In this document: positions 1 to 57,640 of the stretch, piece by piece
How the letters are laid out: each line of letters opens with the position of its first letter
Numbering within the stretch: position 1 is the first letter of the stretch
Origin: a phage
DNA: 64,000 bases
Sequence record: PX441839.1
Direction: 5' to 3' (one strand)
Made by a program: the position numbers and the translations under genes
The notes under the pieces: generated by a model
What the model was told of the DNA's origin: nothing
What the model saw: the letters and a program-made list of their open reading frames with translations, nothing else
Database searches by the model: none

Positions 1-2769
1 ACACTGGAAATTCGGCAAGGTGCTCTGTATGTGCGCCCACAAGAGACCCAGATCTCTCAAGATCCTGCAAACAAGATTGAACTGAAACCTGACGGTATCT
101 TTGTAGAAACCGTAAAAGGTGATAAGGGAGATACAGGTGAGCAAGGACCAGCAGGTCCAGAAGGTCCTCAGGGTCCAGCAGGTAAAGACGGCGCACCTGG
201 TGTAGAAGGTCCTCGTGGACCAGAAGGTGAAAGAGGTCCGGCTGGAATCGGCATCAATGTTATTGCTCAGTTGGCAACTGTTGATCAGCTTCCTCCTGTA
301 GAGAACTACGAAGATGGTGACACCTTCGTTATTGATGGTCACTTCTGGACTAAAACTACAGTAGGTGATACATCCCAGTGGACTGATGTCGGATCTTTCA
401 TTGGACCAGAAGGTCTGGATGCCTATGAGGTTGCTGTACAAGATGGTTTCGAAGGTACAGTTGATGAATGGTTGGCAAGCCTTCGTGGTGCTGACGGTAT
501 CGGTCTGCAACTCTTAGGTTCATTCAGAAGCGTTGATGACCTCCCAATGGAAGATAACAAGGCAGGTGATGCCTATATCGTCCAAGAGCAGATGTGGGTT
601 TGGGACACTGTTCAGTGGGCACCTGTTGGACAGGTTGGCCCAGAAGGTAAGTCAGCGTATCAAGTTTGGTTGGCTAATGGTAACACTGGTTCGCAGAATG
701 ACTTCTTGGCATCCTTAAAAGGAGAGAAAGGAGACAAGGGCGATAAAGGTGATAAAGGAGACAAGGGTGAAGACGGTAAGAACGCCAACGCCGTAAACAT
801 TCTTGGATCTGTTGAAACCGAGGCTGACCTTCCTGACGGTGCTGATGCCGGGGACGCATACCTGATCGGAGAGAACGTATGGGTATCCGATGGCGCAGGT
901 AAATGGACAGACCTTGGCTCTTTCCGTGGTCCAGAAGGTCCTCGTGGAGTACCTGGTGAAAAGGGTGACAAGGGCGATACTGGTGCTCAAGGTGGTACAG
1001 GTAAGAGCAACTATGACCTCGCTGTAGAGGAAGGATTCACTGGAACTGTTGCCGAATATTTGGAATCCATCAAGGGTGAAAAAGGAGACCAAGGTCCACA
1101 AGGTCCTCGTGGACTGACCGGACCTAAAGGCGACAAAGGTGACACTGGAACAGGACTTACAGTTAAAGGATCTGTTGCATCTGTAGAAGACCTACCTGCT
1201 GCTGGAAATGCAGAAGGTGATGCCTATTTCGTTGGTACTCATATGTATGTTTTCCTGTCTGGTGCATGGGAAGATGTCGGTGAGTTGAAAGGTGAAAAAG
1301 GCGATAAGGGTGACACAGGACCTAAGGGAGATACAGGCCCACAGGGTCCAGCGGGTGAGCGTGGTCCTCAGGGTGTTCAAGGTCTTAAAGGCGACACTGG
1401 CCCAGTGGGTCCTCAAGGACCAGCAGGTAGGGACGGTGTAGACGGTACAAACGGAACCGATGGTAAAGACGGAACAGGTCTGATGCCAAAAGGCACCGTT
1501 GCAACTCAGGCGGATCTCCCTGCAACTGGTAATTCTATCGGTGATTTTTATACGGTAGAAGAGGAAGGAAGGGGTTACGCTTGGAACGGAACAGAGTGGA
1601 TCTACTCCGGTGTGGCTCAGGGTCCTCAAGGACCAGCGGGTGAAAACGGTGCTGATGGTGCTACAGGTCCTCAAGGCCCACAGGGTCCTAAGGGTGACAA
1701 AGGAGACATGGGGCAAGGTATTCTGCCGAAGGGAACTGTCCCGACTCAGGCTGACCTTCCTACCGAAAACAATGAAATTGGTGACTTCTATGTTGCTGAT
1801 GACACTGGAATCGGTTACGCTTGGAATGGCACAACCTTCATTAACTCTGGGATTTCTCGTGGTAAAGACGGGGAACAAGGTCCACAGGGTGAACAGGGTA
1901 TTCAAGGTGAGCAGGGTCCTGCTGGTCCTAAGGGAGATACGGGGGATACTGGTCCTCAAGGCCCACAGGGGGATATTGGCCCAGGTGTAGAAATCATCGG
2001 TAAGCTGAATGATCCTTCTGAACTTCCGGCAACCGGAGAACTTGGTCAAGGATACCTGATCGAGGGTGACTTCTGGGGTTGGACAGGTCAAGCTTACGAG
2101 AACTTGGGACAGATTCGCGGACCTGCGGGTCCGGTTGGTCCACAAGGGAACCCAGGTCCTGTAGGTGAGCAGGGTGTTCGTGGTGAGAAGGGTGATCAAG
2201 GCTCCTTATGGATCGTCTTTGGTAGAGAACCTACTCCTGCTGATGGTCGCGTAGGTGACTACTTCATGAACTCTTCCACTCTGGAGTTCTTCCGTAAGAC
2301 TTCTGCAACCAACTGGGCATCTCTTGGTTACATGGGTGGCGGTAACGTCTACGATGCACCTAAAGATGGGAAGCAGTACACCCGTTTAGATGGTGATTGG
2401 GAAGTTCTTTCTGTTACTGAGGCACCTGAGGACGGTGGGTACTACATCCGTACCAATGGTCAATGGCAAAAATTAGATCGTTACGACCTCCGTGTTGTTG
2501 AAACTACAGGTGCTATGGACGTATCTGTGAGTAACTGCTTCAAGGTTGACGGGACGGCTAATAAAACCATGTCTCTCACAGGACTCCCTCCTGACAGGGC
2601 GATGACTATTGTTATTCGCTTCTTGGGTAAAGGGGCGCAGTTGACTTGGCCTTCAAACCTTGCTTGGTCAAATGGTACACCTCCTGCTCTTGGCACAACC
2701 CGTACAGTGGTAACTCTGTTCTGGGACGGTGAATTCCTGACTGGGACTCAGGCGATGACTGTTGACTAA
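1..2769 (+). CDS. collagen-like repeat fiber protein (5-prime partial)
   Basis: ORF 31..2769 has no in-frame stop back to the window edge. Long Gly-X-Y tracts ([25 protein letters not shown]...) are interrupted by at least 6 copies of a ~50-aa module (DLP...GD.Y...W.W.G). TAA stop is followed by a terminator. Confidence 0.8.
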   Translation, partial: TLEIRQGALYVRPQETQISQDPANKIELKPDGIFVETVKGDKGDTGEQGPAGPEGPQGPAGKDGAPGVEGPRGPEGERGPAGIGINVIAQLATVDQLPPVENYEDGDTFVIDGHFWTKTTVGDTSQWTDVGSFIGPEGLDAYEVAVQDGFEGTVDEWLASLRGADGIGLQLLGSFRSVDDLPMEDNKAGDAYIVQEQMWVWDTVQWAPVGQVGPEGKSAYQVWLANGNTGSQNDFLASLKGEKGDKGDKGDKGDKGEDGKNANAVNILGSVETEADLPDGADAGDAYLIGENVWVSDGAGKWTDLGSFRGPEGPRGVPGEKGDKGDTGAQGGTGKSNYDLAVEEGFTGTVAEYLESIKGEKGDQGPQGPRGLTGPKGDKGDTGTGLTVKGSVASVEDLPAAGNAEGDAYFVGTHMYVFLSGAWEDVGELKGEKGDKGDTGPKGDTGPQGPAGERGPQGVQGLKGDTGPVGPQGPAGRDGVDGTNGTDGKDGTGLMPKGTVATQADLPATGNSIGDFYTVEEEGRGYAWNGTEWIYSGVAQGPQGPAGENGADGATGPQGPQGPKGDKGDMGQGILPKGTVPTQADLPTENNEIGDFYVADDTGIGYAWNGTTFINSGISRGKDGEQGPQGEQGIQGEQGPAGPKGDTGDTGPQGPQGDIGPGVEIIGKLNDPSELPATGELGQGYLIEGDFWGWTGQAYENLGQIRGPAGPVGPQGNPGPVGEQGVRGEKGDQGSLWIVFGREPTPADGRVGDYFMNSSTLEFFRKTSATNWASLGYMGGGNVYDAPKDGKQYTRLDGDWEVLSVTEAPEDGGYYIRTNGQWQKLDRYDLRVVETTGAMDVSVSNCFKVDGTANKTMSLTGLPPDRAMTIVIRFLGKGAQLTWPSNLAWSNGTPPALGTTRTVVTLFWDGEFLTGTQAMTVD

Positions 2770-3462: not shown

Positions 3463-3813
3463 ATGTCTGCAATCGGCGGAACATCTTTAGGTCTGATTAC
3501 TGGCTATGCGATCATGGATCAGTCAACTGGTGAAACAAAAACCATCTCCGAGTTACTCAGTGGTGCTGGGGGCGGCACACCGGGTCCTGTTGGACCTAAG
3601 GGAGATCAGGGTGAAGTTGGACCTCAAGGACCTAAGGGCGACACAGGCCCTGCTGGACCGCAGGGTCCTCAAGGGGAGCAGGGTGTAGGTATTGCACATG
3701 CCAATACAAAAATTGATGGACGTAATGTAACCATTATGTTTACGATGACGGATAACACAGTGAAAGAAGTTGTTTTCACAATTCCTGAACCAACCCCGAC
3801 CCCCTCTGCCTGA
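3463..3813 (+). CDS. small collagen-like repeat protein
   Basis: 116 aa; Gly-X-Y tract [37 protein letters not shown]; AGGAG RBS; start overlaps previous stop (TAATATG). Confidence 0.65.
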   Translation: MSAIGGTSLGLITGYAIMDQSTGETKTISELLSGAGGGTPGPVGPKGDQGEVGPQGPKGDTGPAGPQGPQGEQGVGIAHANTKIDGRNVTIMFTMTDNTVKEVVFTIPEPTPTPSA

Positions 3814-3825
3814 TATATTTACACC

Positions 3826-3848
3826 ACCGCCCTTCGGGGCGGTTTTCT
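3826..3848 (+). terminator. rho-independent terminator
   Basis: ACCGCCC-TTCG-GGGCGGT hairpin followed by a T-run. Confidence 0.6.
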
Positions 3849-3870
3849 TGTATCTGCTTAAGGAGAAATT

Positions 3871-4545
3871 ATGGCAAAGCTTAAGGGTATTACTGGAAAT
3901 CAAAATGGGGTATTCTATGGTTATGCCCTCTATGATTTAAAATCTGAGAAGCTTATTCCTTTTAATGAGATTGGGGTAGGAGGCGGAGAAGCAGAGCAAG
4001 GTCCGGTAGGTCCTGTTGGACCACAAGGACCTAAAGGTGACAAAGGTGATCCTGGACCTCAAGGTTTGAGAGGTCCTCAAGGTCCTCAGGGACCTAAAGG
4101 TGATCCTGGCGCAAAGGGTGATGAAGGGATCGATGGTGCTGTTGGACCACAAGGTCCAAAAGGGGATAGGGGAGAACCAGGACCAGAAGGACCACAAGGT
4201 CCAATCGGACCCCGTGGACCAGTGGGACCTGCGGGAGCGACGGGTCTTAACTGGAAGGGACAGTATTCTGACTCTGTTACTTATCTTCTTGACGACGCTG
4301 TCGCGTTTAATGGTGCAACCTACTTTTCTGTCAAGGAGTCAACAGGGATAAGCCCAGCGGAAGATACAGTTCAAGAATACTGGGCTGTAATGGCAGCTTC
4401 TGGGGTAAAGGGAGACCAAGGTCCACAAGGTCCCGTGGGACCAGTGGGTCCTCAAGGTGAAAGAGGTGAACAGGGTATTCAAGGACCGAGAGGTCCAGTT
4501 GGAGAGACAGGACCTGCTGGACCTCGCGGACCGGAAGGGATTTAG
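3871..4545 (+). CDS. collagen-like repeat protein (ends at in-frame TAG)
   Basis: 224 aa with several Gly-X-Y tracts and a globular insert ([24 protein letters not shown]...). The stop is TAG at 4543-4545 and the same frame continues as collagen-like sequence. Confidence 0.6.
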
Positions 4546-4860
4546 GGACCACAGGGACCTCAAGGTATTCAGGGTCCTCAAGGTAAAAAGGGAGTTAATT
4601 GGAGGGGGAACTGGTTTAGAAACACCACATACACGAAAGATGACGCTGTTTATTTTGAAGGTACGAGTTGGATTTGCGATATAGACCATTCCTCGTCAGA
4701 TGACAATAAACCGGGAAGCCCTCAAAGATTTAAGTGGGCAGTTTTCGCCAAGAAAGGGGAAGACGGTCCTCAAGGACCTGCGGGAGAGCCAAAGAAAATC
4801 AACCATGTACTTCGGAATTGCTCCTGGAAATGGGGTGACATCATTCCTTGGACTTCCTAA
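4546..4860 (+). other. collagen-like reading frame continuing after the TAG, no start codon of its own
   Basis: Same frame as 3871..4545 encodes GPQGPQGIQGPQGKKG, a second copy of the NW.G....TY..DDAV.F.G module, and GEDGPQGPAGEP, then a TAA stop at 4858-4860. Confidence 0.4.
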
Positions 4861-27613: not shown

Positions 27614-27621
27614 CAACCAAT

Positions 27622-27653
27622 AAAAAGGCTCCCGAATGGGAGCCTTTTCTTTT
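27622..27653. terminator. bidirectional rho-independent terminator between convergent operons
   Basis: AAAAAGGCTCCC-gaat-GGGAGCCTTTTCTTTT, A-run on one side and T-run on the other, between the + gene ending 27613 and the - gene ending 27659. Confidence 0.7.
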
Positions 27654-27658
27654 ATGTA

Positions 27659-28858
27659 TTACAGGACATAAATCACGTGGTTAGGATATTGAAGCCCTAC
27701 CGGAGCGAAGGGGATGTCATCATCGAAATCCATAACATCTGGGGTGTAGTCCAGATGACCATCATCGCTTACCGGAACTTGAGGATTAGTATCCTGAGGT
27801 TTTTGTTCCAGTTGAGGTTCAGGGGCTTTTTCTGGAGACGCGTCTTTCCGAACAAGGTCTTCTGTCGCATTGATGAATCGGAAGGTTGTTTCCACATTCT
27901 CAATAAACTGATCAATACCTTCTTGACTGTGTCGAGCAGCCAAGATACCGGATTGGCCCAGACGAGCACCAAACGCATAATCATCCATACCTTTGAACTC
28001 TTCCCGCAGCTTGGCCTTGATGGTATCCATAGCTTTCAGAACCTGCACCACAATAATTTGCTGATCGACGATAGCTGCATTTGGGAACATTGCATCTGTG
28101 ATAGTCAGTGCGTTGCCTAAACGAATCGGCAAGTCATCCTTTCCACCTTTACGGGAACCACCTGCACCACCTGCACCTTTTGGACCATAAGCCTTGAAAG
28201 CACTGATTGAACCATCAGCCGCCCGCTGACCAGCCAAACGACCACCCTCTTGGATCTGGGAGAGTTGCTCGTCTGACAGCTTAACGGTAACATCGCCATT
28301 ATCTGTCTTCACTACAACGTCTGAGCCGCTCACAGAGACGATTTCTCCGTAAACCTTAGTGGTTGCACCACCTGCACCTTGAGAGCCTCCCTGAGGTGTC
28401 TGAGAGCCTTGCGGAGCTACATCTCGAGCACCAGATGCATCGGTAATTTTAATTTTGTTCTTTTTACCCTCGGTGGAGGTTCGTTCATTACCCTCTCGGT
28501 CTTTGTAATATTTAACCTGCACTGGTAGACGAATCTTCATGCCTGGTTTAAGGCTTACATATTTGTCACCTTCTTTGATCTGGAACTGATCTTCGTATTT
28601 CAAGTTCTTAACTTCACCTTCTCCAAAAGAGATCCAAGCTGAATCTTCACCTTCTTTCAACAGGATAGAATAGCGATGGGTAGACTTGATAGTCTTACCT
28701 GCATTTGGACCCTTGTTGATGTGGGTGATTTTAGGACTACCGTCCTCATTGATACGTTTGATATTGATACGTTCAATTGTTCCAGCGGCGACGTGTACAG
28801 TCACATCATTAACAGCATCATAAACAGAGTTAACAACTTGAATTTTAACTTCGGACAT
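27659..28858 (-). CDS. hypothetical protein (Gly-rich linkers; internal DDDIPF motif)
   Basis: 399 aa; contains DFDDDIPF, which resembles the SSB acidic tail motif but is not at the C-terminus; function unassigned. Confidence 0.55.
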   Translation of the reverse strand: MSEVKIQVVNSVYDAVNDVTVHVAAGTIERINIKRINEDGSPKITHINKGPNAGKTIKSTHRYSILLKEGEDSAWISFGEGEVKNLKYEDQFQIKEGDKYVSLKPGMKIRLPVQVKYYKDREGNERTSTEGKKNKIKITDASGARDVAPQGSQTPQGGSQGAGGATTKVYGEIVSVSGSDVVVKTDNGDVTVKLSDEQLSQIQEGGRLAGQRAADGSISAFKAYGPKGAGGAGGSRKGGKDDLPIRLGNALTITDAMFPNAAIVDQQIIVVQVLKAMDTIKAKLREEFKGMDDYAFGARLGQSGILAARHSQEGIDQFIENVETTFRFINATEDLVRKDASPEKAPEPQLEQKPQDTNPQVPVSDDGHLDYTPDVMDFDDDIPFAPVGLQYPNHVIYVL

Positions 28859-28889
28859 TTATTTCTCCTTCGGAATTAAGCCTCGTTTG

Positions 28890-28925
28890 AGGCCGGAACA
28901 ACATATTATCACAAATACTTAGATT
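28890..28925 (-). promoter_or_regulatory. putative promoter (TTGCAA ... TGaTAATAT) for the 27659..28858 gene
   Basis: Minus-strand TTGCAA, about 16-nt spacer, TG-extended TAATAT upstream of the AAGGAG RBS. Confidence 0.35.
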
Positions 28926-28931
28926 TGCAAC

Positions 28932-29306
28932 TTACAAGTAGACACGTTGGACTTCTTTGTCTGCCTTTTCGAACATCATGTTTGCCATGTTAATATCCTT
29001 GATCACCACCTCTGTAATCTCGTCCGGACGAAAAGCCTTAAGTGACCGTTTAAAGATGATAGTCGGATCTTCACATGGATCACCTGATGTGTCAAACAAT
29101 TTCACCAGCATCTTAACAGGAACTTGACAAGACACCTTTCCCCCATAGTTGATTGCATACGCTGCGCCGACCTCTGCCTGACGGTCTCCCAGTTCATACA
29201 CCAAATTCAGGTTTACATATTTACAACCTTGACCTGCCGTTATGTTCTTTGTTGCAGAGATGCAGTTCCAACCTGGTTCAATAAAGGTGTTGTCAAAAAT
29301 GCTCAT
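28932..29306 (-). CDS. hypothetical protein
   Basis: Start moved to the ATG of MSIFDNTF (AAGGAG RBS lies inside the longer track ORF). Confidence 0.5.
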   Translation of the reverse strand: MSIFDNTFIEPGWNCISATKNITAGQGCKYVNLNLVYELGDRQAEVGAAYAINYGGKVSCQVPVKMLVKLFDTSGDPCEDPTIIFKRSLKAFRPDEITEVVIKDINMANMMFEKADKEVQRVYL

Positions 29307-29371
29307 GGTGAAATCTCCTTTCATTAAGTTATGGGTCTATTATATAAGACCCACCTCAATTAAGTCAACAC

Positions 29372-29728
29372 TTAAATACTTTTCTCAAAGCCTTCCGCTT
29401 GGAAGTAGGCTGTTTTCTCAGAGGTCTCAATTGAGAAACTTACCTGGGACAGTTCAGCAGCCAAGTGAGCAGCAATCTGTTTTGCCATGTGGACAATCAT
29501 ACCTTCTTCTTTTGGGAAGCGAGGGTACTGGATAAGTCGCACAGTAAACCCCTTTTCCATCCCTCCCGTATAGATATAGTCAGTTTTAGTAAGCTGAATA
29601 CATCCTCGCTCCGCATGGGTAAGGTACTTCCTAAGAATATGACGAGCAAAGTCAATATCCCCTGCCATGTGGATCGTCACATAGAATGTTTTCTCGGTTG
29701 CCTTTTGAACGAAATTTACATTAGCCAC
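29372..29728 (-). CDS. hypothetical protein
   Basis: 118 aa; GTG start immediately after the upstream TAA. Confidence 0.5.
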   Translation of the reverse strand: MANVNFVQKATEKTFYVTIHMAGDIDFARHILRKYLTHAERGCIQLTKTDYIYTGGMEKGFTVRLIQYPRFPKEEGMIVHMAKQIAAHLAAELSQVSFSIETSEKTAYFQAEGFEKSI

Positions 29729-30112
29729 TTATTTTCTCCCCTTCTTACGGTGATAAACTCCACGTTTGGACAGAGGAATTTCCTCTGCATCTCTTCCATC
29801 AACACCATCTTCACCAGGTTCACCTTGAGGACCCATTGGACCTGCTGGTCCCATTGGCCCCATAGGTCCTACAGGTCCAGTGACAACACGAATGTCTTTA
29901 GGTTTGTACAGAGAATAACCCAAGCATCCAAACCAACCGATAAGTGTAATTACGCTCGGAGGCAAAAGGAAGAAGATAACAGTAAAGACAGAGATCATCC
30001 ACTTATTCCTGTGATCCTTCTTCCATGCGATAATTATTGGGGAAAAACTAATTGCCAATAAAATTAACAGAAAAACAAGACCGAGAGTGATGGCAGCTTC
30101 TGCAATTATCAT
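29729..30112 (-). CDS. membrane protein with C-terminal collagen-like repeat
   Basis: Two hydrophobic helices, then VTGPVGPMGPMGPAGPMGPQGEPGEDGVDG (about 9 Gly-X-Y triplets). Confidence 0.55.
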   Translation of the reverse strand: MIIAEAAITLGLVFLLILLAISFSPIIIAWKKDHRNKWMISVFTVIFFLLPPSVITLIGWFGCLGYSLYKPKDIRVVTGPVGPMGPMGPAGPMGPQGEPGEDGVDGRDAEEIPLSKRGVYHRKKGRK

Positions 30113-30390
30113 TAACGAAGACCCTCTTTGATTTTAAGTTCAATCAACCCTGCATCCAGGGTATACATGTATCCAGTGTTATCCCGAAAGTAACAAAGGA
30201 CTCCCTTGGGTTCGGATTTTCTTACTATGACCCGACCCCTTTGATAACCAGGTTGTGTTTCACAAACCTTGTACAGTTCCTGAATACGGGAAGGCAGAAT
30301 AGTATGAGAATTCTTGTACTTATCCTCACCTTCTTCCAGACACCCTGTCAAAAGTACAGAGCACAGTAGTGCAATAATTAACTTTTTCAT
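30112..30390 (-). CDS. putative lipoprotein
   Basis: Start at MKKLIIALLCSVLLTGC (signal peptide with lipobox LTGC); ATGA overlap with the upstream small ORF. Confidence 0.6.
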   Translation of the reverse strand: MKKLIIALLCSVLLTGCLEEGEDKYKNSHTILPSRIQELYKVCETQPGYQRGRVIVRKSEPKGVLCYFRDNTGYMYTLDAGLIELKIKEGLR

Positions 30391-30563
30391 GCGCAGAATG
30401 CCGCCACAATTAGTGAAAAGGGCCACACGATCCCGAAAATTACAGAGGGTCCTTTGTCAATTCTGCAAAATCGACGATAGAATAGTCGCCCTGCTCCAAC
30501 ACTGATCAGGATATAGAGTAAAGATACAAGTAACTCAAGTGCATATAATGTTAAAAAATTCAT
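30387..30563 (-). CDS. small two-helix membrane protein (not in the ORF track; holin-like topology)
   Basis: 58-aa ORF MNFLTLYALELLVSLLYILISVGAGRLFYRRFCRIDKGPSVIFGIVWPFSLIVAAFCA; AAGGA RBS; stop overlaps the lipoprotein start. Confidence 0.45.
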   Translation of the reverse strand: MNFLTLYALELLVSLLYILISVGAGRLFYRRFCRIDKGPSVIFGIVWPFSLIVAAFCA

Positions 30564-30565
30564 AA

Positions 30566-30943
30566 TCAGATTCCTTTTCTTTCTCTGCGTTTACGGCGGA
30601 TATCCTCTTCAACCTCTACCTCAGCCTTGTCGATAATCTCGTATACGGACGGAACTGATTCAGATGGGGAAAACATCTTGTGCAGGTTCCTGACCATCAT
30701 TACCAACTTCCCCCTTACCTTGAAATCATATCTCCAAGATCTAAAGTGGAAGCAATCATGACGCCATTGGAACATATAGCATATCTCTTTTGCACGGTTA
30801 CGAGTAACACCCAGTAAGTTTGCAAACTCTCCATGAGGATCTCCATTTGGATCTCCAAGAATATATGCTGTTGCCCAATGCTTCTTCGCCAAGTTGTACT
30901 CTTCAACCGTCATGTTTACTTTCGTGTTCATATTGCCCTCCAA
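30566..30943 (-). CDS. hypothetical protein
   Basis: 125-aa ORF, co-oriented and tightly packed. Confidence 0.5.
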   Translation of the reverse strand: MEGNMNTKVNMTVEEYNLAKKHWATAYILGDPNGDPHGEFANLLGVTRNRAKEICYMFQWRHDCFHFRSWRYDFKVRGKLVMMVRNLHKMFSPSESVPSVYEIIDKAEVEVEEDIRRKRRERKGI

Positions 30944-30995
30944 GATACTCTACTCCAAGATTATGGGGAGTATAACGCCCCTTGTCAACAATTAC

Positions 30996-31592
30996 TTAAT
31001 CACAACTGCAAGATGACCCTGAGTCACAGGAAGAATAGCTGTCTGAACCACCGTAGCTGGACGAAGAACTATACGATGAAGTGTAGTTGCAATTGTCATC
31101 ACTGCGGTAAGAACTTGAACCAGACGTCACGATTGCAGTGGAAATACCTGCAACGGTGGCGATATTCAAAATATCATCACTATCCTGGTGAACTGGACGA
31201 GATGGACTTGAAACCGACATTGGACGACCATTTGATCGTGACCGCTTAATGAACTCTTTCTTCGCCTTAGGTGGTAATTTACGACCTTTGGCGTAAGCTG
31301 GGAGTTCAACTTCTTTCAGTTTATCATTCAGAGTCTTACCCTGTTTAATTACAACTTTGGAATCATCCTGTACGATCTCCGCGACCTTGACAGTGTTCTC
31401 TTTGGTATTGACTGCTGTGACCACCTCTTTGTCACCCAGAGGCTTGTCGATAGGTTTGGTTCCCACTTCAACCATTCGAACATTAACATTGGTAGGTTGT
31501 TTACTGATGTATTCATCAACCTTCACTTCGTCAATTTCAACCTTGGAGGAAGAGAACAGACCTTTAAACCAAGATACCAGCTTCTTAAACAT
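30996..31592 (-). CDS. hypothetical protein with Ser-rich C-terminus
   Basis: 198 aa; C-terminal low-complexity S/Y/G/C/D tail. Confidence 0.5.
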   Translation of the reverse strand: MFKKLVSWFKGLFSSSKVEIDEVKVDEYISKQPTNVNVRMVEVGTKPIDKPLGDKEVVTAVNTKENTVKVAEIVQDDSKVVIKQGKTLNDKLKEVELPAYAKGRKLPPKAKKEFIKRSRSNGRPMSVSSPSRPVHQDSDDILNIATVAGISTAIVTSGSSSYRSDDNCNYTSSYSSSSSYGGSDSYSSCDSGSSCSCD

Positions 31593-31602
31593 ATTGTTTC
31601 TC

Positions 31603-31824
31603 CTATTCGCTAATGACTACTAGTTGAGTAATTCCGATCAGACCTGCACTAAACAGATCGTCAATTGCAGCTTGCCCGTCAAGACCTTCTTCATAACATT
31701 CTTTGAGGGTATCATTGTCAAGCAGCCATTTGTTTGCCACGTCCTCTGACGTGAAGACCAAATCTTGCTGACCAATATCCCATTCAGACCAAATAGAGTA
31801 CATTATTTTGCACTCCCGTTCCAC
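31603..31824 (-). CDS. hypothetical protein
   Basis: 73-aa acidic ORF. Confidence 0.4.
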   Translation of the reverse strand: MERECKIMYSIWSEWDIGQQDLVFTSEDVANKWLLDNDTLKECYEEGLDGQAAIDDLFSAGLIGITQLVVISE

Positions 31825-31997
31825 ACTGCGTCCACAACACCCTTGAGTCCAACACTATCTACAGCTTGGATAAGCTCAACAGCGCCCCAAATCATCACAC
31901 CAATACCTACAACGGTCATCGCAAAAACAATACCGATACCGATCTTGATTGCATTTTTTGTCCGGTTAAAGGATTTGTTGAAATCTGAACTAATCAT
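31803..31997 (-). CDS. small membrane protein
   Basis: 64 aa with a hydrophobic helix (IGIGIVFAMTVVGIGVMIWGA). Confidence 0.4.
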   Translation of the reverse strand: MISSDFNKSFNRTKNAIKIGIGIVFAMTVVGIGVMIWGAVELIQAVDSVGLKGVVDAVWNGSAK

Positions 31998-32327
31998 TTA
32001 ATATCTCCCATTATCAAATTCATTTCTTGCCCATTGGACTGCCTTTATGAGCACATCTCCGTGACAAGGTTGCGGTGAGCAGAAGCAGACTAGGTCTTTG
32101 CCCTCCAACTCAAGAAGATCACCAATTGTTATTCTACCTTCTTTTATCTGAGTCCACAACCACTTTCTGTATCTTTCGATTGTGGCCCCTCTCGGCTCAT
32201 CATTTGACAATTTGAAAGGGTTGGCAAATCTCGATTGGAGTAGCCCGAAGTGGGGCATTCTCCTCCCGATATAAACTGCATTCTCTGGTATGACCTTCCC
32301 TAAGTGGTAGAAGTTCAATACCTTCAT
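31998..32327 (-). CDS. DUF4326-like protein
   Basis: Start at internal ATG (MKVLNFYHLGK) with GAAGG RBS; motifs AVYIGRR, FANPF, RYRKWLW, LVCFCSPQPCHGDVL recalled as typical of DUF4326. Confidence 0.5.
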   Translation of the reverse strand: MKVLNFYHLGKVIPENAVYIGRRMPHFGLLQSRFANPFKLSNDEPRGATIERYRKWLWTQIKEGRITIGDLLELEGKDLVCFCSPQPCHGDVLIKAVQWARNEFDNGRY

Positions 32328-32328
32328 A

Positions 32329-32664
32329 TTACTTACCTTCACGGTCCTTGTCAATAATTTTCTGTGCCAGATCGGATAGCTTGTTGCCAATGAATGGCAT
32401 CTTGTCCAGCAATTTTGTGGATTTTCTCTCCAGATCATAAAATAGGTCAGTGGCCTTGTCGAAGATCCATCCTCCAAACTTACCGATATAAACAAAGACA
32501 AGGGCCAGTGTCCTATGGGGATTAATAACCAGCAAGGCAAAGAGTAAACCTGCCATCTTACTGTGGAATTTGACCTCTTTCCAAAAATGTTTTAACTTAG
32601 TCACCATATAGTTGAGTCTCCGGAATAATATCTTCAATAGAGTCGTCCCAAACAACACAGCCAT
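32329..32664 (-). CDS. hypothetical membrane-associated protein
   Basis: ORF with a hydrophobic segment (MAGLLFALLVINP...); exact start uncertain. Confidence 0.4.
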   Translation of the reverse strand: MAVLFGTTLLKILFRRLNYMVTKLKHFWKEVKFHSKMAGLLFALLVINPHRTLALVFVYIGKFGGWIFDKATDLFYDLERKSTKLLDKMPFIGNKLSDLAQKIIDKDREGK

Positions 32665-43269: not shown

Positions 43270-43806
43270 TCAAGTATATATAAACTCCCCTGTAAAGTTT
43301 ACATCCGTGTATATTCCACGAAACGGAGATACAATCTTCATCAACCCGCTTACAGGGTCTAAGTACACAAAATTAGTAACCGTATATCCTAAGTAACTGG
43401 AGTAAGAGTTACTGGTGTGGTTATTCCTTGAAACCGAAATATATTGATTATAAGTAACAGTTACTGTTTTCGTTATAAGGACGGTAGAATTAGTCCGCAG
43501 CAGGGCTTGGTACGTACCATACGAAGGTGAGGCATGTTGCGCTACCAGATACCACCAAGAGTCGTAAGTTACCGAAGTTCCGTATGGGCTTCCCCACATC
43601 CTCCCGTCTGTTGAGTACACTTTCCCGACATCATACGCCATAGTTTGGGCCGGAGCAGTGACCTCGGGTATCCAAGACCCTGCCGCCTGATTGTCAGGGA
43701 TACGGAGTATTCCCCTTTGTTGGTCTAGCCATTTTAGAAACACAGGATAGGTCATGGGGCCCTCGATTGGGGCGGATGCCCCTGATACCGACAGTAACTC
43801 AAGCAT
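43270..43806 (-). CDS. hypothetical protein with the shared N-terminal leader
   Basis: Start at internal ATG (MLELLSVSGASAP) with GGAGAG RBS; the longer track ORF would run through the upstream terminator. Confidence 0.5.
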   Translation of the reverse strand: MLELLSVSGASAPIEGPMTYPVFLKWLDQQRGILRIPDNQAAGSWIPEVTAPAQTMAYDVGKVYSTDGRMWGSPYGTSVTYDSWWYLVAQHASPSYGTYQALLRTNSTVLITKTVTVTYNQYISVSRNNHTSNSYSSYLGYTVTNFVYLDPVSGLMKIVSPFRGIYTDVNFTGEFIYT

Positions 43807-43824
43807 AAATCTCTCCAATATTTG

Positions 43825-43847
43825 AAAGGGGCCGAAGCCCCTTTTTT
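43825..43847. terminator. bidirectional terminator hairpin
   Basis: AAA-GGGGC-cgaa-GCCCC-TTTTTT between the DNA polymerase exon 2 and the leader cassette. Confidence 0.6.
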
Positions 43848-43862
43848 CTTTGTACAGAGGGT

Positions 43863-43895
43863 ATTTTAACACGGACGCTTTGAATTATCCACAAG
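43863..43895 (-). promoter_or_regulatory. putative extended -10 promoter (TGtTAAAAT) for the leader cassette
   Basis: Minus-strand TGTTAAAAT just upstream of the terminator hairpin and the 43806 gene; -35 is weak. Confidence 0.3.
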
Positions 43896-43928
43896 GTATA
43901 AAACCACCCCATAGAACAAGCGCATAAC

Positions 43929-44228
43929 TCAGTGACATTGCCCCCAATTAAGTCCTGTCAGATACTCACCTGTGATATGTACAGGTGCCTTCATCATCTT
44001 AGCTGCTTGTTCAACGCAACGAACAACCATTTCACCGACAGGGCAGTAGATGATAGTGAATATTCCATTCTCATCGGGGTCGCACTTAAACTTACCTTCC
44101 TTGACACAATGACCATCCAGAACCATACGCTTCTTGAGGCAATCCTCAACAAAAGCTTTTGCTTCGACTTCATTGTCAAACTTCCATTCCTTCTTGAACT
44201 TATTTGGAACTTCAAGCTGGTATTCATC
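43929..44228 (-). CDS. DNA polymerase family A, exon 2 (C-terminal end)
   Basis: Begins at DEYQLEVP (second half of the Pol A motif C, HDE...E.P) and ends ...TGLNWGQCH, like the Pol I C-terminus; the leading Met of the track ORF is probably intron-derived. Confidence 0.6.
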   Translation of the reverse strand, partial: DEYQLEVPNKFKKEWKFDNEVEAKAFVEDCLKKRMVLDGHCVKEGKFKCDPDENGIFTIIYCPVGEMVVRCVEQAAKMMKAPVHITGEYLTGLNWGQCH

Positions 44229-44998
44229 CAAAGTTTAGCAGGTTCGTTAATCCTGCCCACACCATTACGTGTTGCCATACGGTTTCCCGTAGGATCGGAC
44301 TATATCACCACCCTTTTCAGGGTGCTCCCCATTTCGACGCCACTTGGTCGCCTACGCCTCTCGGCTAGTCTCTGAACGTTAAGACCACGTATACTTCTCG
44401 GAAATATGCTTCCACTGCCGACGCTGCTTAATGGCTCGTACTGTTGCATAGGGGAATCCCATGTCGCGTACCTCTGCCTGGCTCATTCCGCTTTCAAGAA
44501 GCTGGCAAATGGTCATCACTTCGTCTTCTGTGAGGGCACTATTAGCATTGTTGATACCTTCCGCGCTGCGACAGTTGTGGCGATAGGCGTTCTCTATGTT
44601 TTTGCCTCTCGTAACCCACTGTAGGTTGTCTTTGTGGTTATTCCTTTTATCGGGCCACTTGTGATCAACCTCTGGAAGATTGTTCGGATTGGGAACAAAA
44701 CATTCTGCCACCAAAACATGGACCGCCTTTGTCGTCGCCTTTTTGTTAAGGTAAAGACTGACAATTGCATACCCTCTTCCATTATCAACATGCTTCATAG
44801 GTTTACCTCGACGACCTATAATGGTCCCGTCCTCGTAAACTTTATATCCGAAATAGTCTTTGTACTCCACGTAGTCCTCTTCGCTGCTGATTAACATAGC
44901 TGCACTTTAGTTTATTATTAACCCAGTGTCAACCTTAGCCTTCCAGCAATTAAAGGAGTTTTCGATGTAGGTTGCCCTACAAAGCCACAATGTTACTT
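44229..44998 (-). mobile_element. group I-like intron in the DNA polymerase gene, carrying an HNH homing endonuclease ORF
   Basis: About 770 nt separate the exon 1 end (...VRRIIYYH) from exon 2 (DEYQLEVP), splitting motif C. It contains an HNH ORF and an 80-nt core conserved with the second intron. Boundaries approximate. Confidence 0.55.
44379..44897 (-). CDS. HNH homing endonuclease
   Basis: 172 aa; HVLVAECFVPNPNNLPEVDHKWPDKRNNHKDNLQWVTRGKN is an HNH-type motif; lies between the polymerase fragments. Confidence 0.75.
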   Translation of the reverse strand: MLISSEEDYVEYKDYFGYKVYEDGTIIGRRGKPMKHVDNGRGYAIVSLYLNKKATTKAVHVLVAECFVPNPNNLPEVDHKWPDKRNNHKDNLQWVTRGKNIENAYRHNCRSAEGINNANSALTEDEVMTICQLLESGMSQAEVRDMGFPYATVRAIKQRRQWKHISEKYTWS

Positions 44999-56998: not shown

Positions 56999-57125
56999 CC
57001 ACTAAGGATTCACATAAGTAACTTTGAATGAATCCATCGTGAAAATCTAAAACCTTAAATACATGACCCGCCTTTGGGTGGTCGAGTCTGTCACTATAAT
57101 CCGCCGTCAGATACACTTTCTTCAT
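56943..57125 (-). CDS. hypothetical small protein
   Basis: Start set at internal Met (MKKVYLTADY) to avoid overlapping the hydrolase gene. Confidence 0.35.
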   Translation of the reverse strand: MKKVYLTADYSDRLDHPKAGHVFKVLDFHDGFIQSYLCESLVDGKTYVLYPDEIEEYIGE

Positions 57126-57640
57126 TTTACCCTCTCTTTGTAAAATATGTGGTTTCCGATTATTACTGTTCTTACCATACTGGCTATCCAATAGGGCCTG
57201 ATCTTCTTTGTATGGTAATGCGTAGAACCATTCGTGAAATCATAAGATGAGTATACAGCAGGGTACTTGTGCAATGCAAGAATAAATTTGGATAATTTCT
57301 TTGCCTTCTCCCAAGTAGCTTTATCCCTGATCCGGTAATTCTTGCCGGAGTTTGCCCAAGAGAACTGGGAATCTTGATAAACAACACCTTTTACGGAATC
57401 TGGATATCTGTCCTTATCTTTTCTGTTGAGAGTTACAAAACCAACAGCGAGCATACCTCTCTCACCTTCACCAGATGCCTCTTTAAACATGTTACATGCA
57501 AGGGCATTGACTGCATTATCATTCTTCTTGCAGACGTGGACAACGGGTGGGTTTTTCGGTGCGTTCTCTTTAGCCAAAGCCGAGGCGGTGGATAGAGACA
57601 ACGTACAGGCCAAAAGAATGGCGGTTATCCGCTTCTTCAT
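57122..57640 (-). CDS. secreted cell wall hydrolase (SleB/CwlJ-like)
   Basis: Sec-type signal peptide MKKRITAILLACTLSLSTASALA; FKEASGEGERGMLAVGFVTLNR, YQDSQFSW, THYH, IGNHIFYKE match SleB-family motifs (from memory). Confidence 0.7.
   Translation of the reverse strand: MKKRITAILLACTLSLSTASALAKENAPKNPPVVHVCKKNDNAVNALACNMFKEASGEGERGMLAVGFVTLNRKDKDRYPDSVKGVVYQDSQFSWANSGKNYRIRDKATWEKAKKLSKFILALHKYPAVYSSYDFTNGSTHYHTKKIRPYWIASMVRTVIIGNHIFYKERVK

What the first reader, a model, noticed from the sequence alone, without database searches (positions are those of the whole stretch)
29729..30563. Membrane-protein cluster: holin-like microprotein, lipoprotein, and a membrane-anchored collagen-like protein
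A 58-aa two-helix membrane ORF missing from the ORF track (30387..30563) is translationally coupled (ATGA) to a lipoprotein gene with lipobox LTGC (30112..30390). This is followed by a two-helix membrane protein whose extracytoplasmic tail is a collagen-like (GPxG)n repeat (29729..30112). No endolysin lies adjacent; the only obvious cell wall hydrolase is 27 kb away at 57122..57640. The cluster could be a split lysis cassette (holin plus spanin-like), or a superinfection-exclusion or receptor-masking module.
Basis: partly seen in the sequence, partly recalled or inferred. Interest (0 to 1): 0.55.

Follow-up and report, generated by a model that had tools for sequence, protein, structure and literature searches.

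The report
Imm-like superinfection immunity gene trio
Three tightly coupled small envelope genes of a Salmonella rV5-like phage are most likely an accessory module that stops related phages from injecting DNA into an already infected cell, not a lysis cassette, because one gene is a collagen-tailed relative of the phage T4 immunity protein Imm.

Summary
All three ORFs exist at the stated coordinates on the minus strand. They are a 58-aa two-helix microprotein, a 92-aa lipoprotein (lipobox LTGC) and a 127-aa membrane protein with ten G-X-Y triplets. The junctions overlap (ATGA, TAATG).

The window is 99% identical to Salmonella phage SSBI34 (Vequintavirinae). A small-membrane-ORF / lipoprotein / membrane-collagen trio sits in the same slot in about 28 sequenced relatives, all annotated as hypothetical.

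The membrane part of the 127-aa protein resembles T4 Imm (PF14373):
- Pfam E 3.6e-5, just under the curated cut-off
- PHROG "immunity to superinfection" E 9.6e-8
- hhalign to T4 Imm 80.6%, against under 1% for two control membrane proteins

The lysis reading is disfavoured. SSBI34 has a canonical Rz/Rz1-like spanin pair next to its terminase. 19 of 35 lipoprotein orthologues carry Asp at +2, the inner-membrane retention signal. phiTE has lost the lipoprotein and Imm genes outright, keeping only a 21-codon scar, and CB7 shows the same truncated match.

Best reading: a superinfection-immunity module, a new architectural variant of a known kind.

Still open: which side of the membrane the collagen tail lies on, what the lipoprotein does (no fold relatives), and whether the 58-aa ORF is translated (no homologues).

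The parts
30960..30988 (-). Sigma-70-like promoter match (TTGACA-17-CATAAT, 11 of 12) just upstream of the first gene of the tightly packed block.
   Evidence: The total number of promoter-like sites in the region is not above the shuffled expectation. The motif is not conserved in relatives, which have a GC-rich hairpin here instead. This is weak evidence only.
30566..30943 (-). 125-aa gene (probable start ATG 30931), the conserved upstream neighbour of the trio. Function unknown.
   Evidence: phrog_16320 at 9e-14 and phrog_12333 at 1.5e-11. Orthologues of 133-152 aa sit directly upstream of the small membrane ORF in CR9, POP15, CR3, A5-4, L009, L011 and L012.
30387..30563 (-). 58-aa predicted two-helix membrane microprotein with a basic connecting loop. 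It is an orphan, and is unannotated in SSBI34.
   Evidence: ORF, Shine-Dalgarno site and hydropathy. No homologues were found. A positional analogue, phrog_22594, is present in relatives. hhalign to that family gives only P = 0.013 and probability 3%.
30112..30390 (-). 92-aa lipoprotein (signal peptide plus lipobox LTGC, Leu at +2). The mature part is a 75-residue alpha-beta3-alpha domain with two conserved cysteines.
29729..30112 (-). 127-aa Imm-like membrane protein with a collagen-like C-terminal tail.
   Evidence: PF14373 at E 3.6e-5 and PF01391 at E 1.8e-5. phrog_15593 at 1e-23 and phrog_1039 'immunity to superinfection' at 9.6e-8. About 30 family members were found.
29903..30112 (-). Codons 1-70, the Imm_superinfect-like membrane domain. 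It has a long helix 2-31, a basic loop KKDHRNK, and helices 37-49 and 52-69 broken at Pro51-Pro52.
   Evidence: Family-wide, P25, A29, N36 and P51 are invariant and R32, H34 and R35 nearly so. T4 R33, reported as functionally important, aligns with the basic position 32 (and preprint 10.64898/2026.03.06.709160).
29789..29878 (-). Codons 79-108, ten G-X-Y triplets (GPVGPMGPMGPAGPMGPQGEPGEDGVDGRD).
   Evidence: The number of triplets ranges from about 3 to 10 among orthologues, and the A5-4 type carries fibre-like SAYE..DEWLxSLxG inserts.
29756..29797 (-). Codons 106-119, the C-terminal motif GRDAEEIPLSKRGV. The family consensus is G[KR]DADEIPLSKxGV, followed by a basic end.
   Evidence: G106, D108, A109, E111, P113, L114, S115, G118 and V119 are invariant in 26 sequences. 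The motif is kept even in L011, which has no lipoprotein gene.
29372..29728 (-). 118-aa gene with a GTG start directly after the Imm stop codon and a GGGGAG Shine-Dalgarno site. It is the downstream member of the same packed block, of unknown function, and is unannotated in SSBI34.
   Evidence: phrog_4848 at 5.4e-40.

Best explanation
The three genes are a dispensable envelope module of a virulent rV5-like myovirus, and its most likely job is superinfection immunity.

The 127-aa protein is an inner-membrane protein whose membrane domain belongs to the T4 Imm (Imm_superinfect) kind. It is extended by a collagen-like segment that should make it a trimer, and it ends in a strictly conserved peptide. 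By analogy with T4 Imm, it would sit in the inner membrane of an infected cell. There it would stop the tape-measure or tail-tip proteins of a later-arriving related phage from opening a DNA conduit. T4 Imm is reported to bind the tape-measure protein and block DNA translocation.

The lipoprotein and the microprotein are co-translated partners. They would either stabilise or position the Imm-like protein, or add a periplasmic layer of exclusion. The second option would be functionally comparable to T4 Spackle or the Ltp lipoprotein of phage TP-J34, without homology to either.

Shown here: the gene structures, the stop/start overlaps, conservation of the trio, the similarity to Imm, loss of the module in phiTE, and the separate spanin pair.

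Inferred: exclusion activity, the target, trimerisation, expression timing, and the role of the two partners.
For: Similarity to Imm:
- Pfam PF14373 at E 3.6e-5, matched by 3 of 5 orthologues.
- phrog_1039 'immunity to superinfection' at E 9.6e-8.
- hhalign of the family against T4 Imm gives probability 80.6% and E 1.3e-5 over 53 columns.
- In the reverse direction, T4 Imm hits the family's PHROG at 0.004.
- Two unrelated two-helix membrane proteins used as controls give probability under 1%.
- The conserved P-x-x-I-A..[KR]-x-H-R-N loop and the G-W motif line up with T4.
- UniRef already names the CR8 and PBES 02 orthologues 'Superinfection immunity protein'.

Co-occurrence: the trio is found in essentially the same set of about 28 phage records. 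The 4-nt overlaps are conserved.

Dispensability: in phiTE the lipoprotein, the Imm-like gene and two further genes are deleted outright. CB7 shows the same truncated 21-residue match.

Context: the block lies on the strand and side of the genome that holds the SSB-like, polymerase and helicase genes, as T4 imm does. The phage is a contractile myovirus with an 829-aa tape-measure protein.

Mechanism in T4: Imm binds the tape-measure protein (preprint 10.64898/2026.03.06.709160).
Against: - The Pfam score (24.0 bits) is below the curated cut-off (27.9).
- PF14373 is a small membrane domain, and T4 Imm is the only member with a characterised function.
- No expression or exclusion data exist for any member of this family.
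- The sigma-70-like promoter is not conserved in relatives, so early timing is not established.
- The lipoprotein has no relatives of known function.
- PADLOC gives no hits for any of the proteins.
- It is unresolved which side of the membrane the tail lies on. A simple two-span model puts it in the periplasm. The helix-loop-helix arrangement described for T4 Imm would put it in the cytoplasm.
Confidence: 0.52

Rival explanations
1. Split lysis cassette. The 58-aa protein would be a holin or pinholin. The lipoprotein and the membrane-collagen protein would be a spanin-like pair linking the inner and outer membranes at lysis, working with the exported SleB-like hydrolase 27 kb away.
For: - The layout (small membrane protein, lipoprotein, and a membrane protein with an elongated and probably oligomeric tail) superficially recalls a holin plus spanins.
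- No holin is annotated anywhere in SSBI34.
- The hydrolase at 57122..57640 has a Sec signal peptide, so it would need only membrane depolarisation to act.
- There is a weak hit to phrog_812 'Rz-like spanin' at E 0.0094, but it covers only the first 38 residues of the lipoprotein, that is the signal peptide and the start of the mature chain.
Against: - SSBI34 has a canonical pair next to the terminase. The i-spanin has an N-terminal membrane helix (phrog_4297, 3.5e-20) and the o-spanin has lipobox IMGC (phrog_1267, 6.4e-18).
- The gene order is reversed relative to Rz then Rz1.
- 19 of 35 lipoprotein orthologues have Asp at +2, which signals inner-membrane retention.
- The membrane protein has an Imm-like multi-helix membrane domain, not a single N-in/C-out helix followed by a coiled coil.
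- The 58-aa protein has no charged C-terminal tail, and its basic loop predicts N-out/C-out, the opposite of class II holins.
- phiTE, a viable phage, lacks the lipoprotein and Imm-like genes and keeps only 21 codons of the small ORF. CB7 shows the same truncated match.
- L011 lacks the lipoprotein.
- The block is not on the late strand.
Confidence: 0.06
2. Receptor masking. The lipoprotein alone would be a Cor/Llp-type exclusion factor that blocks the outer-membrane receptor, and the Imm-like protein would be unrelated to it.
For: - Like T5 llp and the cor genes, it lies close to the tail-fibre gene cluster, on the opposite strand (comparison from established knowledge).
- The window's copy has Leu at +2, which predicts the outer membrane.
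- There are weak hits to phrog_1119 (Cor, E 9e-4) and to the EexN entry-exclusion lipoprotein family (E 0.0019, 18 bits against a cut-off of 33).
Against: - The Cor hit covers residues 1-22 only, which is the signal peptide. The EexN hit is far below its cut-off.
- Asp at +2 in 54% of orthologues is incompatible with a conserved role at the outer membrane.
- No structural relative was found.
- The strict stop/start overlap with the Imm-like gene points to a joint function.
Confidence: 0.1
3. An envelope module with some other role. The PF14373-like domain would be only a membrane anchor. The collagen/fibre-like tail would act in the infected cell on the phage's own biology, for example as a membrane-bound scaffold or chaperone site for the phage's many collagen-like fibre proteins, or to modulate lysis timing.
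For: - The tail is built from the same kinds of modules as the phage's own fibres. These are G-X-Y runs, and in the A5-4-type orthologues SAYE..DEWLxSLxG inserts like those in the fibre protein at window 31..2769.
- If the T4-like helix-loop-helix topology applies, the tail is cytoplasmic, which is where fibres assemble.
- T4 imm and sp mutants also affect lysis inhibition (PMC6832632).
Against: - There is no DNA-level relationship to the fibre genes, only generic collagen-like similarity. The longest exact match is 17 nt.
- The module is missing in phiTE, whose relatives carry comparable fibres, so it is not needed for assembly.
- The conserved Imm motifs in the membrane domain argue for more than an anchor.
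Confidence: 0.22
4. The 58-aa ORF is not a gene. Only the lipoprotein and Imm-like genes would be real, and the 177-nt stretch would be a leader or intergenic remnant.
For: - No homologues exist anywhere except the identical SSBI34 copy.
- It is not annotated in SSBI34.
- hhalign to the positional analogue family gives only 3% probability.
Against: - It has a good Shine-Dalgarno site (AAGGA, 9 nt upstream) and an ATG start.
- Its stop overlaps the lipoprotein start, and the lipoprotein gene has no ribosome-binding site of its own.
- A two-helix microprotein gene occupies the same slot with the same overlap in the relatives examined, and its protein is found in about 28 phage records.
- There is a shared local pattern, E..V.L..I....AG.R.FY.
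Confidence: 0.15

Closest known systems
Phage T4 Imm (immunity to superinfection; Pfam PF14373 Imm_superinfect; phrog_1039)
   Same: - A small inner-membrane protein with two long hydrophobic stretches joined by a short basic loop.
- Shared P-x-x-I-A..basic and G-W motifs.
- Encoded by a virulent contractile-tailed phage, in a gene block that also holds replication genes.
- Sequence similarity: hhalign 80.6%, PHROG E 9.6e-8.
   Different: - T4 Imm is 83 aa with a short C-terminus. This protein carries a 58-aa tail (36-129 aa in orthologues) made of G-X-Y triplets plus a conserved terminal peptide.
- It is translationally coupled to a lipoprotein and a microprotein, which T4 imm is not.
- The Pfam score is below the gathering cut-off.
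- No exclusion activity has been tested.
HK97 gp15 and the TP-J34 Ltp lipoprotein (superinfection exclusion proteins that target the tape-measure protein; from established knowledge)
   Same: These are membrane-anchored proteins that block DNA entry by acting on the tape-measure protein at the cytoplasmic membrane. Ltp shows that a lipoprotein can do this.
T4 Spackle (Sp)
   Same: A small exported early protein that works alongside Imm in exclusion. The lipoprotein here is likewise a small exported partner encoded next to an Imm-like gene.
   Different: Sp is a soluble all-helical periplasmic protein that inhibits the gp5 lysozyme (PMC7677548). This protein is a lipid-anchored alpha-beta3-alpha domain with no detectable similarity.
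Two-component spanins (lambda Rz/Rz1 type)
   Same: An inner-membrane protein with an elongated, oligomeric tail, plus a small lipoprotein, encoded by overlapping genes.
   Different: - The gene order is reversed.
- The membrane domain is a multi-helix Imm-like domain.
- The tail is a collagen-like segment rather than a coiled coil.
- Asp at +2 occurs in most orthologue lipoproteins.
- A true spanin pair exists elsewhere in the genome.
- The module is dispensable.
Collagen-like phage tail-fibre segments and bacterial collagen-like proteins (Pfam PF01391; Scl1/Scl2)
   Same: Uninterrupted G-X-Y runs rich in Pro and charged residues. In some orthologues there are SAY..WLxSLxG interruptions identical in type to those in this phage's own fibre proteins.
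   Different: The run is very short (3-10 triplets), it is attached to a membrane domain rather than to a fibre or adhesin, and there is no receptor-binding head.

Membership tests
T4 Imm / Pfam PF14373 Imm_superinfect | Match to the family profile at or above the curated gathering score. | tested here: inconclusive
   The score is 24.0 bits (E 3.6e-5) against a cut-off of 27.9. Three of 5 orthologues match, with a best E of 2.7e-5. The protein database lists precomputed PF14373 hits for two cluster representatives. phrog_1039 gives 9.6e-8. hhalign to T4 Imm gives probability 80.6%, against under 1% for the controls.
T4 Imm / Pfam PF14373 Imm_superinfect | A small inner-membrane protein with two long lipophilic stretches, a short basic connecting loop and an N-terminus facing out. 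| tested here: met
   Prediction only. AlphaFold2 gives helices 2-31 and 37-69, kinked at 50-51. In 26 sequences the loop carries 3-5 Lys/Arg and the N-terminus carries none, with 0-2 acidic residues.
T4 Imm / Pfam PF14373 Imm_superinfect | Conserved residues that matter in T4 Imm: R33 in the loop region, and the W50 loop between the last two helices. | tested here: inconclusive
   T4 R33 aligns with position 32, which is K in the window and R in at least 90% of the family. The T4 W50 loop falls in a 6-residue insertion around the invariant Pro51, so it is not the same residue.
T4 Imm / Pfam PF14373 Imm_superinfect | Blocks DNA entry of superinfecting phage and binds the tape-measure protein. 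| not testable with these tools
   This needs plating-efficiency, DNA-entry and pull-down experiments.
T4 Imm / Pfam PF14373 Imm_superinfect | Expressed early in infection. | tested here: inconclusive
   Two 11-of-12 sigma-70-like matches lie in the right intergenic positions. They are not enriched over shuffled sequence, and the first is not conserved in relatives. The block is on the same strand as the replication genes.
Two-component spanin (Rz/Rz1) | The i-spanin has a single N-terminal membrane helix (N-in/C-out) followed by a periplasmic coiled coil. | tested here: not met
   The protein has an Imm-like domain of two long helices and a collagen-like tail rather than a coiled coil.
Two-component spanin (Rz/Rz1) | The o-spanin is an outer-membrane lipoprotein with no Lol-avoidance Asp at +2. 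| tested here: not met
   The window copy has Leu at +2, but 19 of 35 orthologues have Asp at +2.
Two-component spanin (Rz/Rz1) | The i-spanin gene precedes or embeds the o-spanin gene, the pair is part of the late lysis gene set, and there is one such set per genome. | tested here: not met
   Here the lipoprotein gene comes first. A separate Rz-like pair lies upstream of the terminase in SSBI34.
Holin (for the 58-aa ORF) | A small membrane protein with a charged, hydrophilic C-terminal tail, encoded next to the endolysin and required for lysis. | tested here: not met
   The protein ends ...SLIVAAFCA inside its second helix. The nearest hydrolase is 27 kb away. The positional counterpart is cut to 21 codons in the viable phage phiTE, and CB7 shows the same truncated match.
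Cor / Llp receptor-blocking lipoproteins | Sequence relationship beyond the signal peptide, and a conserved outer-membrane location. | tested here: not met
   The phrog_1119 match covers residues 1-22 only. Asp at +2 is found in 54% of orthologues.
Bacterial lipoprotein (signal peptidase II substrate) | A basic n-region, a hydrophobic h-region and the lipobox [LVI][ASTVI][GAS]C. | tested here: met
   The sequence is MKK-LIIALLCSVLL-TGC. G and C are invariant in all 35 sequences. Lipid modification itself is not testable here.
Collagen triple-helix repeat (PF01391) | An uninterrupted run of G-X-Y triplets able to form a trimer. | tested here: inconclusive
   Ten consecutive triplets can be read directly from the sequence. 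Pfam gives 24.8 bits against a cut-off of 27.2. Triple-helix formation is not testable here, and the monomer AlphaFold2 model leaves the tail disordered.

The most novel reading that the evidence does not exclude
The Imm-like protein, trimerised by its collagen stalk, would form a dedicated envelope device together with the lipoprotein and the microprotein. The device would intercept the tail tip or tape-measure protein of a superinfecting Vequintavirinae phage in the periplasm or at the inner membrane. Its conserved C-terminal peptide (DADEIPLSKxGV) would act as a fibre-like decoy or docking element. That would be a multi-component, structurally new form of Imm-type immunity, in which the Imm-like and Spackle-like roles are encoded as one co-translated unit.
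Probability: 0.2. Interest if true: 0.6.

Novelty: new variant of a known kind. Interest (0 to 1): 0.4.

Why it matters
Imm is one of the oldest known phage-against-phage exclusion factors, yet a mechanism was proposed only in 2026 (binding of the tape-measure protein), and only for T4. This family would be a second, architecturally different branch. It is probably trimerised by a collagen-like stalk, and it is always co-translated with a lipoprotein and a microprotein, in a phage subfamily (Vequintavirinae) widely used in phage cocktails.

If the module excludes related phages, three things follow:
- It bears on how rV5-like phages can be combined in cocktails.
- It gives a natural comparison for identifying which parts of Imm recognise the incoming tail.
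- It assigns a role to three genes that are 'hypothetical' in about 28 published genomes.

If it does not exclude, the finding is still a tidy correction: these genes are not a hidden lysis cassette.

Tried and rejected
- Single-sequence homologue search for the 127-aa protein found only SSBI34 and collagen noise. An alignment query was needed.
- A Foldseek search of the Imm-collagen model against PDB gave no hits. T4 Imm has no PDB entry detectable by sequence.
- PADLOC gave no hits for any of the seven proteins of the block. NCBIfam gave only sub-threshold lipoprotein-signal and collagen-adhesin matches.
- Homologues of the 58-aa ORF were sought by tblastn, a viral-contig scan and an exhaustive phmmer search. 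None was real.
- I looked for recent exchange between the Imm tail and the phage's own collagen-like fibre genes. There was only generic G-X-Y similarity, and no DNA match longer than 17 nt.
- I looked for the C-terminal motif elsewhere in the window and in the first 50 kb of SSBI34. It was not found.
- I tested informally whether stalk length tracks the lipoprotein's +2 residue (a long stalk with an outer-membrane anchor). Pairs matched by locus or by shared contig length show long stalks with both Asn and Asp at +2, so the idea was rejected.
- I tried to settle the topology of the tail. Charge counts fit both the two-span model (tail periplasmic) and the T4-like helix-loop-helix model (tail cytoplasmic). 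The 1993 T4 Imm topology paper is not in the library.
- Promoter conservation was not found.
Full report
**What the window is.** Bases 27600-32600 are 99% identical to Salmonella phage SSBI34 (MZ520832, 141 kb, Vequintavirinae). The next relatives are Certrevirus phages of Cronobacter, Pectobacterium, Enterobacter and Klebsiella. The finding lies at the start of a long minus-strand block that follows the plus-strand tail and tail-fibre genes. A bidirectional terminator at 27622-27649 separates the two.

The minus strand carries a run of tightly packed genes:
- a 125-aa gene (30566..30943)
- the 58-aa ORF (30387..30563)
- the 92-aa lipoprotein gene (30112..30390)
- the 127-aa gene (29729..30112)
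- a 118-aa gene (29372..29728)

The 58-aa ORF has an AAGGA Shine-Dalgarno site 9 nt upstream. It has two hydrophobic segments separated by a basic loop. Its TGA overlaps the lipoprotein ATG (ATGA). The lipoprotein gene has no ribosome-binding site of its own, which fits translational coupling.

The lipoprotein starts MKKLIIALLCSVLLTG|C. Its stop overlaps the next start (TAATG).

The 127-aa protein has helices 2-31 and 37-49/52-69 in an AlphaFold2 model (pLDDT about 90 in that part). It then has ten uninterrupted G-X-Y triplets (residues 79-108), and it ends ...GRDAEEIPLSKRGVYHRKKGRK.

The hydrolase at 57122..57640 is a SleB-like Hydrolase_2 with a Sec signal peptide.

SSBI34's annotation omits both the 58-aa and the 118-aa ORFs.

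**The trio is a conserved unit.** In CR9, POP15, CR3, the E. coli phage A5-4 and metagenomic contigs the same order recurs. A 125-aa-type gene is followed by a 47-51-aa two-helix ORF, a lipoprotein of about 95 aa, and a membrane-collagen protein. Then come a DUF7325 gene, a 61-aa gene in some, and a gene of about 400 aa.

tblastn finds the lipoprotein in 28 phage records and the membrane-collagen protein in 28. The small ORF is found at 80% coverage or more in 28, and in truncated form in three further records (two phiTE records and CB7). The host genera are essentially the same in all three searches. Every one of these genes is annotated 'hypothetical protein'.

The 4-nt start/stop overlaps are conserved, for example ATGTGA and AAATGA in CR9.

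The variations are informative:
- A5-4 has an extra 62-aa ORF and a 190-aa membrane-collagen protein.
- L011 lacks the lipoprotein.
- phiTE keeps only the first 21 codons of the small ORF, followed by a terminator and the ~400-aa gene. The lipoprotein, the Imm-like gene and two further genes have been deleted. CB7 shows the same truncated 21-residue match.

Because phiTE is a viable virulent phage, the module is accessory.

**The 58-aa ORF is the weak point.** The small ORFs of relatives form a well-conserved family (phrog_22594, 76-100% identity among the Certrevirus records). The window's 58-aa protein does not detectably belong to it. hhalign gives probability 3% and P = 0.013, with a shared E..V.L..I....AG.R.FY pattern.

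It has no homologue beyond the identical SSBI34 copy, even in an exhaustive phmmer search of 1.84 billion representatives. The single hit there is a repetitive low-complexity protein. It is therefore either a strongly diverged orthologue or a replacement in the same slot. Translation is likely but unproven.

**What the 127-aa protein is.** Its membrane domain matches several Imm-related profiles:
- Pfam Imm_superinfect (PF14373) at E 3.6e-5, 24.0 bits against a cut-off of 27.9
- phrog_1039 'immunity to superinfection' at E 9.6e-8
- its own family, phrog_15593, at 1e-23

Three of five orthologues hit PF14373.

I fetched T4 imm. The family profile aligns to it with probability 80.6% and E 1.3e-5 over 53 columns. 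Two unrelated two-helix membrane proteins give probability under 1%, so the match is not merely hydrophobic composition. T4 Imm in turn hits phrog_15593 weakly (0.004).

In 26 family members P25, A29, N36 and P51 are invariant, and R32, H34 and R35 are nearly so. T4 R33 aligns with position 32. A 2026 preprint reports that R33 matters for exclusion (10.64898/2026.03.06.709160).

UniRef already labels the CR8 and PBES 02 orthologues 'Superinfection immunity protein'. The domain call is therefore not new, although no paper in the library discusses it.

**The tail.** The number of G-X-Y triplets varies from about 3 to 10. A5-4-type proteins carry inserts of the form SAYE..DEWLxSLxG. The phage's own collagen-like fibre proteins use the same kind of interruption (window 31..2769 and 3463..4545).

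The similarity to those fibres is generic, with no sign of recent DNA exchange.

The terminal peptide G[KR]DADEIPLSKxGV is invariant at nine positions. It is kept even where the lipoprotein is absent. I read it as a trimer-registering or docking element. This is inference.

**Topology is unresolved.** The N-terminus carries no Lys/Arg, and the first loop carries 3-5, so N-out and loop-in are well supported. This agrees with what is stated for T4 Imm.

A plain two-span model then places the tail in the periplasm. However, the preprint describes a helix-loop-helix after the basic loop in T4 Imm, with the W50 loop contacting the tape-measure protein. AlphaFold2 breaks the second hydrophobic stretch here at the invariant Pro51. 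If that arrangement applies, the tail is cytoplasmic.

The flank after the last helix is near neutral in most members, which decides nothing.

**The lipoprotein.** Thirty-five orthologues share the lipobox and two cysteines, C43 invariant and C66 nearly so, which suggests a periplasmic disulfide. The AlphaFold2 model is confident (pLDDT above 95 for residues 30-90) and shows an alpha-beta3-alpha domain.

The +2 residue is Asp in 19 of 35 orthologues, Asn in 10, and Leu in the window. In Enterobacterales, Asp at +2 retains a lipoprotein in the inner membrane (established knowledge of the Lol pathway). A conserved outer-membrane role, whether as o-spanin or receptor mask, is therefore unlikely.

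**Why it is not a lysis cassette.**
- SSBI34 encodes, just upstream of its terminase and outside this window, a 123-aa protein with an N-terminal membrane helix (phrog_4297 'Rz-like spanin', 3.5e-20). Next to it is a 105-aa lipoprotein with lipobox IMGC (phrog_1267, 6.4e-18). Together they form a canonical separated spanin pair.
- The gene order in the trio is the reverse of Rz then Rz1.
- The 58-aa protein lacks a charged C-terminus, and its predicted orientation is opposite to that of class II holins.
- The module is absent from phiTE.
- The surrounding block encodes replication-type functions, including a ~400-aa protein carrying the SSB C-terminal motif MDFDDDIPF.

No holin is annotated in SSBI34, so a minor lysis-related role cannot be fully excluded.

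**Most likely mechanism.** By homology with T4 Imm, which is reported to bind the helical-bundle domain of the tape-measure protein and prevent it from opening a channel in the inner membrane, the 127-aa protein would make an infected cell refractory to DNA injection by related phages. The phage has a contractile tail and an 829-aa tape-measure protein with one moderately hydrophobic segment, so the target class exists.

The collagen segment would trimerise the protein. The co-translated lipoprotein and microprotein would stabilise it or add a periplasmic layer. T4's Imm plus Spackle pair, and the tape-measure-targeting lipoprotein Ltp of TP-J34, are functional analogies only.

Timing is not established. 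Two 11-of-12 sigma-70-like matches sit in the right intergenic spots (30988..30960 and 29368..29339). Such matches are not enriched over shuffles, and the first is replaced by a GC-rich hairpin in relatives.

**Verdict.** The lysis half is disfavoured.

It is a new architectural variant of a known kind: an Imm-type domain with a collagen-like stalk and a conserved terminal peptide, coupled to a lipoprotein and a microprotein. It is of moderate interest. I put about 0.5 on the exclusion mechanism.

Noticed in passing
window 27659..28858 (-): The 399-aa protein (phrog_4477) carries the E. coli SSB C-terminal tip motif MDFDDDIPF. Here it is followed by 15 extra residues (APVGLQYPNHVIYVL). Orthologues in L011 and phiTE end exactly at ...DIPF or ...DVPF. 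The extension would bury a motif that normally needs a free C-terminus.
   Followed up: partly
window 3871..4700 (+): The collagen-like fibre ORF 3871..4545 ends at an in-frame stop after ...GPRGPEGI. The same frame continues as GPQGPQGIQGPQGKKGVNWR. This could be readthrough, a split gene or a sequencing error in a fibre gene.
   Followed up: no
window 29372..29728 (-): A 118-aa ORF with a strong PHROG match (phrog_4848, 5.4e-40) and a good ribosome-binding site is not annotated in SSBI34. It abuts the Imm-like gene's stop codon.
   Followed up: partly
L014 (phiTE) 2456..2700; also CB7 (H69): phiTE has a deletion scar. It retains the first 21 codons of the small membrane ORF and then runs into a terminator and the SSB-like gene. 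The lipoprotein, Imm-collagen, phrog_4848 and DUF7325 genes are lost together. CB7 gives the same truncated 21-residue tblastn match, but its locus was not inspected.
   Followed up: yes
window 30944..31000 (-); L002-L005, L009, L011, L012 upstream of the 125-aa-type gene: Relatives share a GC-rich tetraloop hairpin (GGGGGC-TTCG-GCCCCC) in this intergenic spot. The window instead has a weaker hairpin overlapped by a near-consensus sigma-70 promoter (TTGACA-17-CATAAT).
   Followed up: partly
window 57122..57640 (-): The SleB-like cell-wall hydrolase has a cleavable Sec-type signal peptide and sits among replication genes (helicase, RNA ligase), not in a lysis cassette. Together with the spanins next to the terminase, this shows that the lysis genes of this phage group are scattered. 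No holin is annotated.
   Followed up: partly
window 27.6-57 kb versus SSBI34: The coordinate offset between the window and SSBI34 changes by about 2.3 kb between the Imm region and the hydrolase gene. The two phages therefore differ by at least one indel in the early or replication block.
   Followed up: no
L006 (SSBI34) 43642..44973: The spanin pair is immediately preceded by a 216-aa ConA-like/Laminin_G_3 'virion structural protein' gene. A paralogue-like gene (CR9_037, POP15_039; about 214 aa) sits right after the Imm-collagen gene in CR9 and POP15, but not in the window.
   Followed up: no
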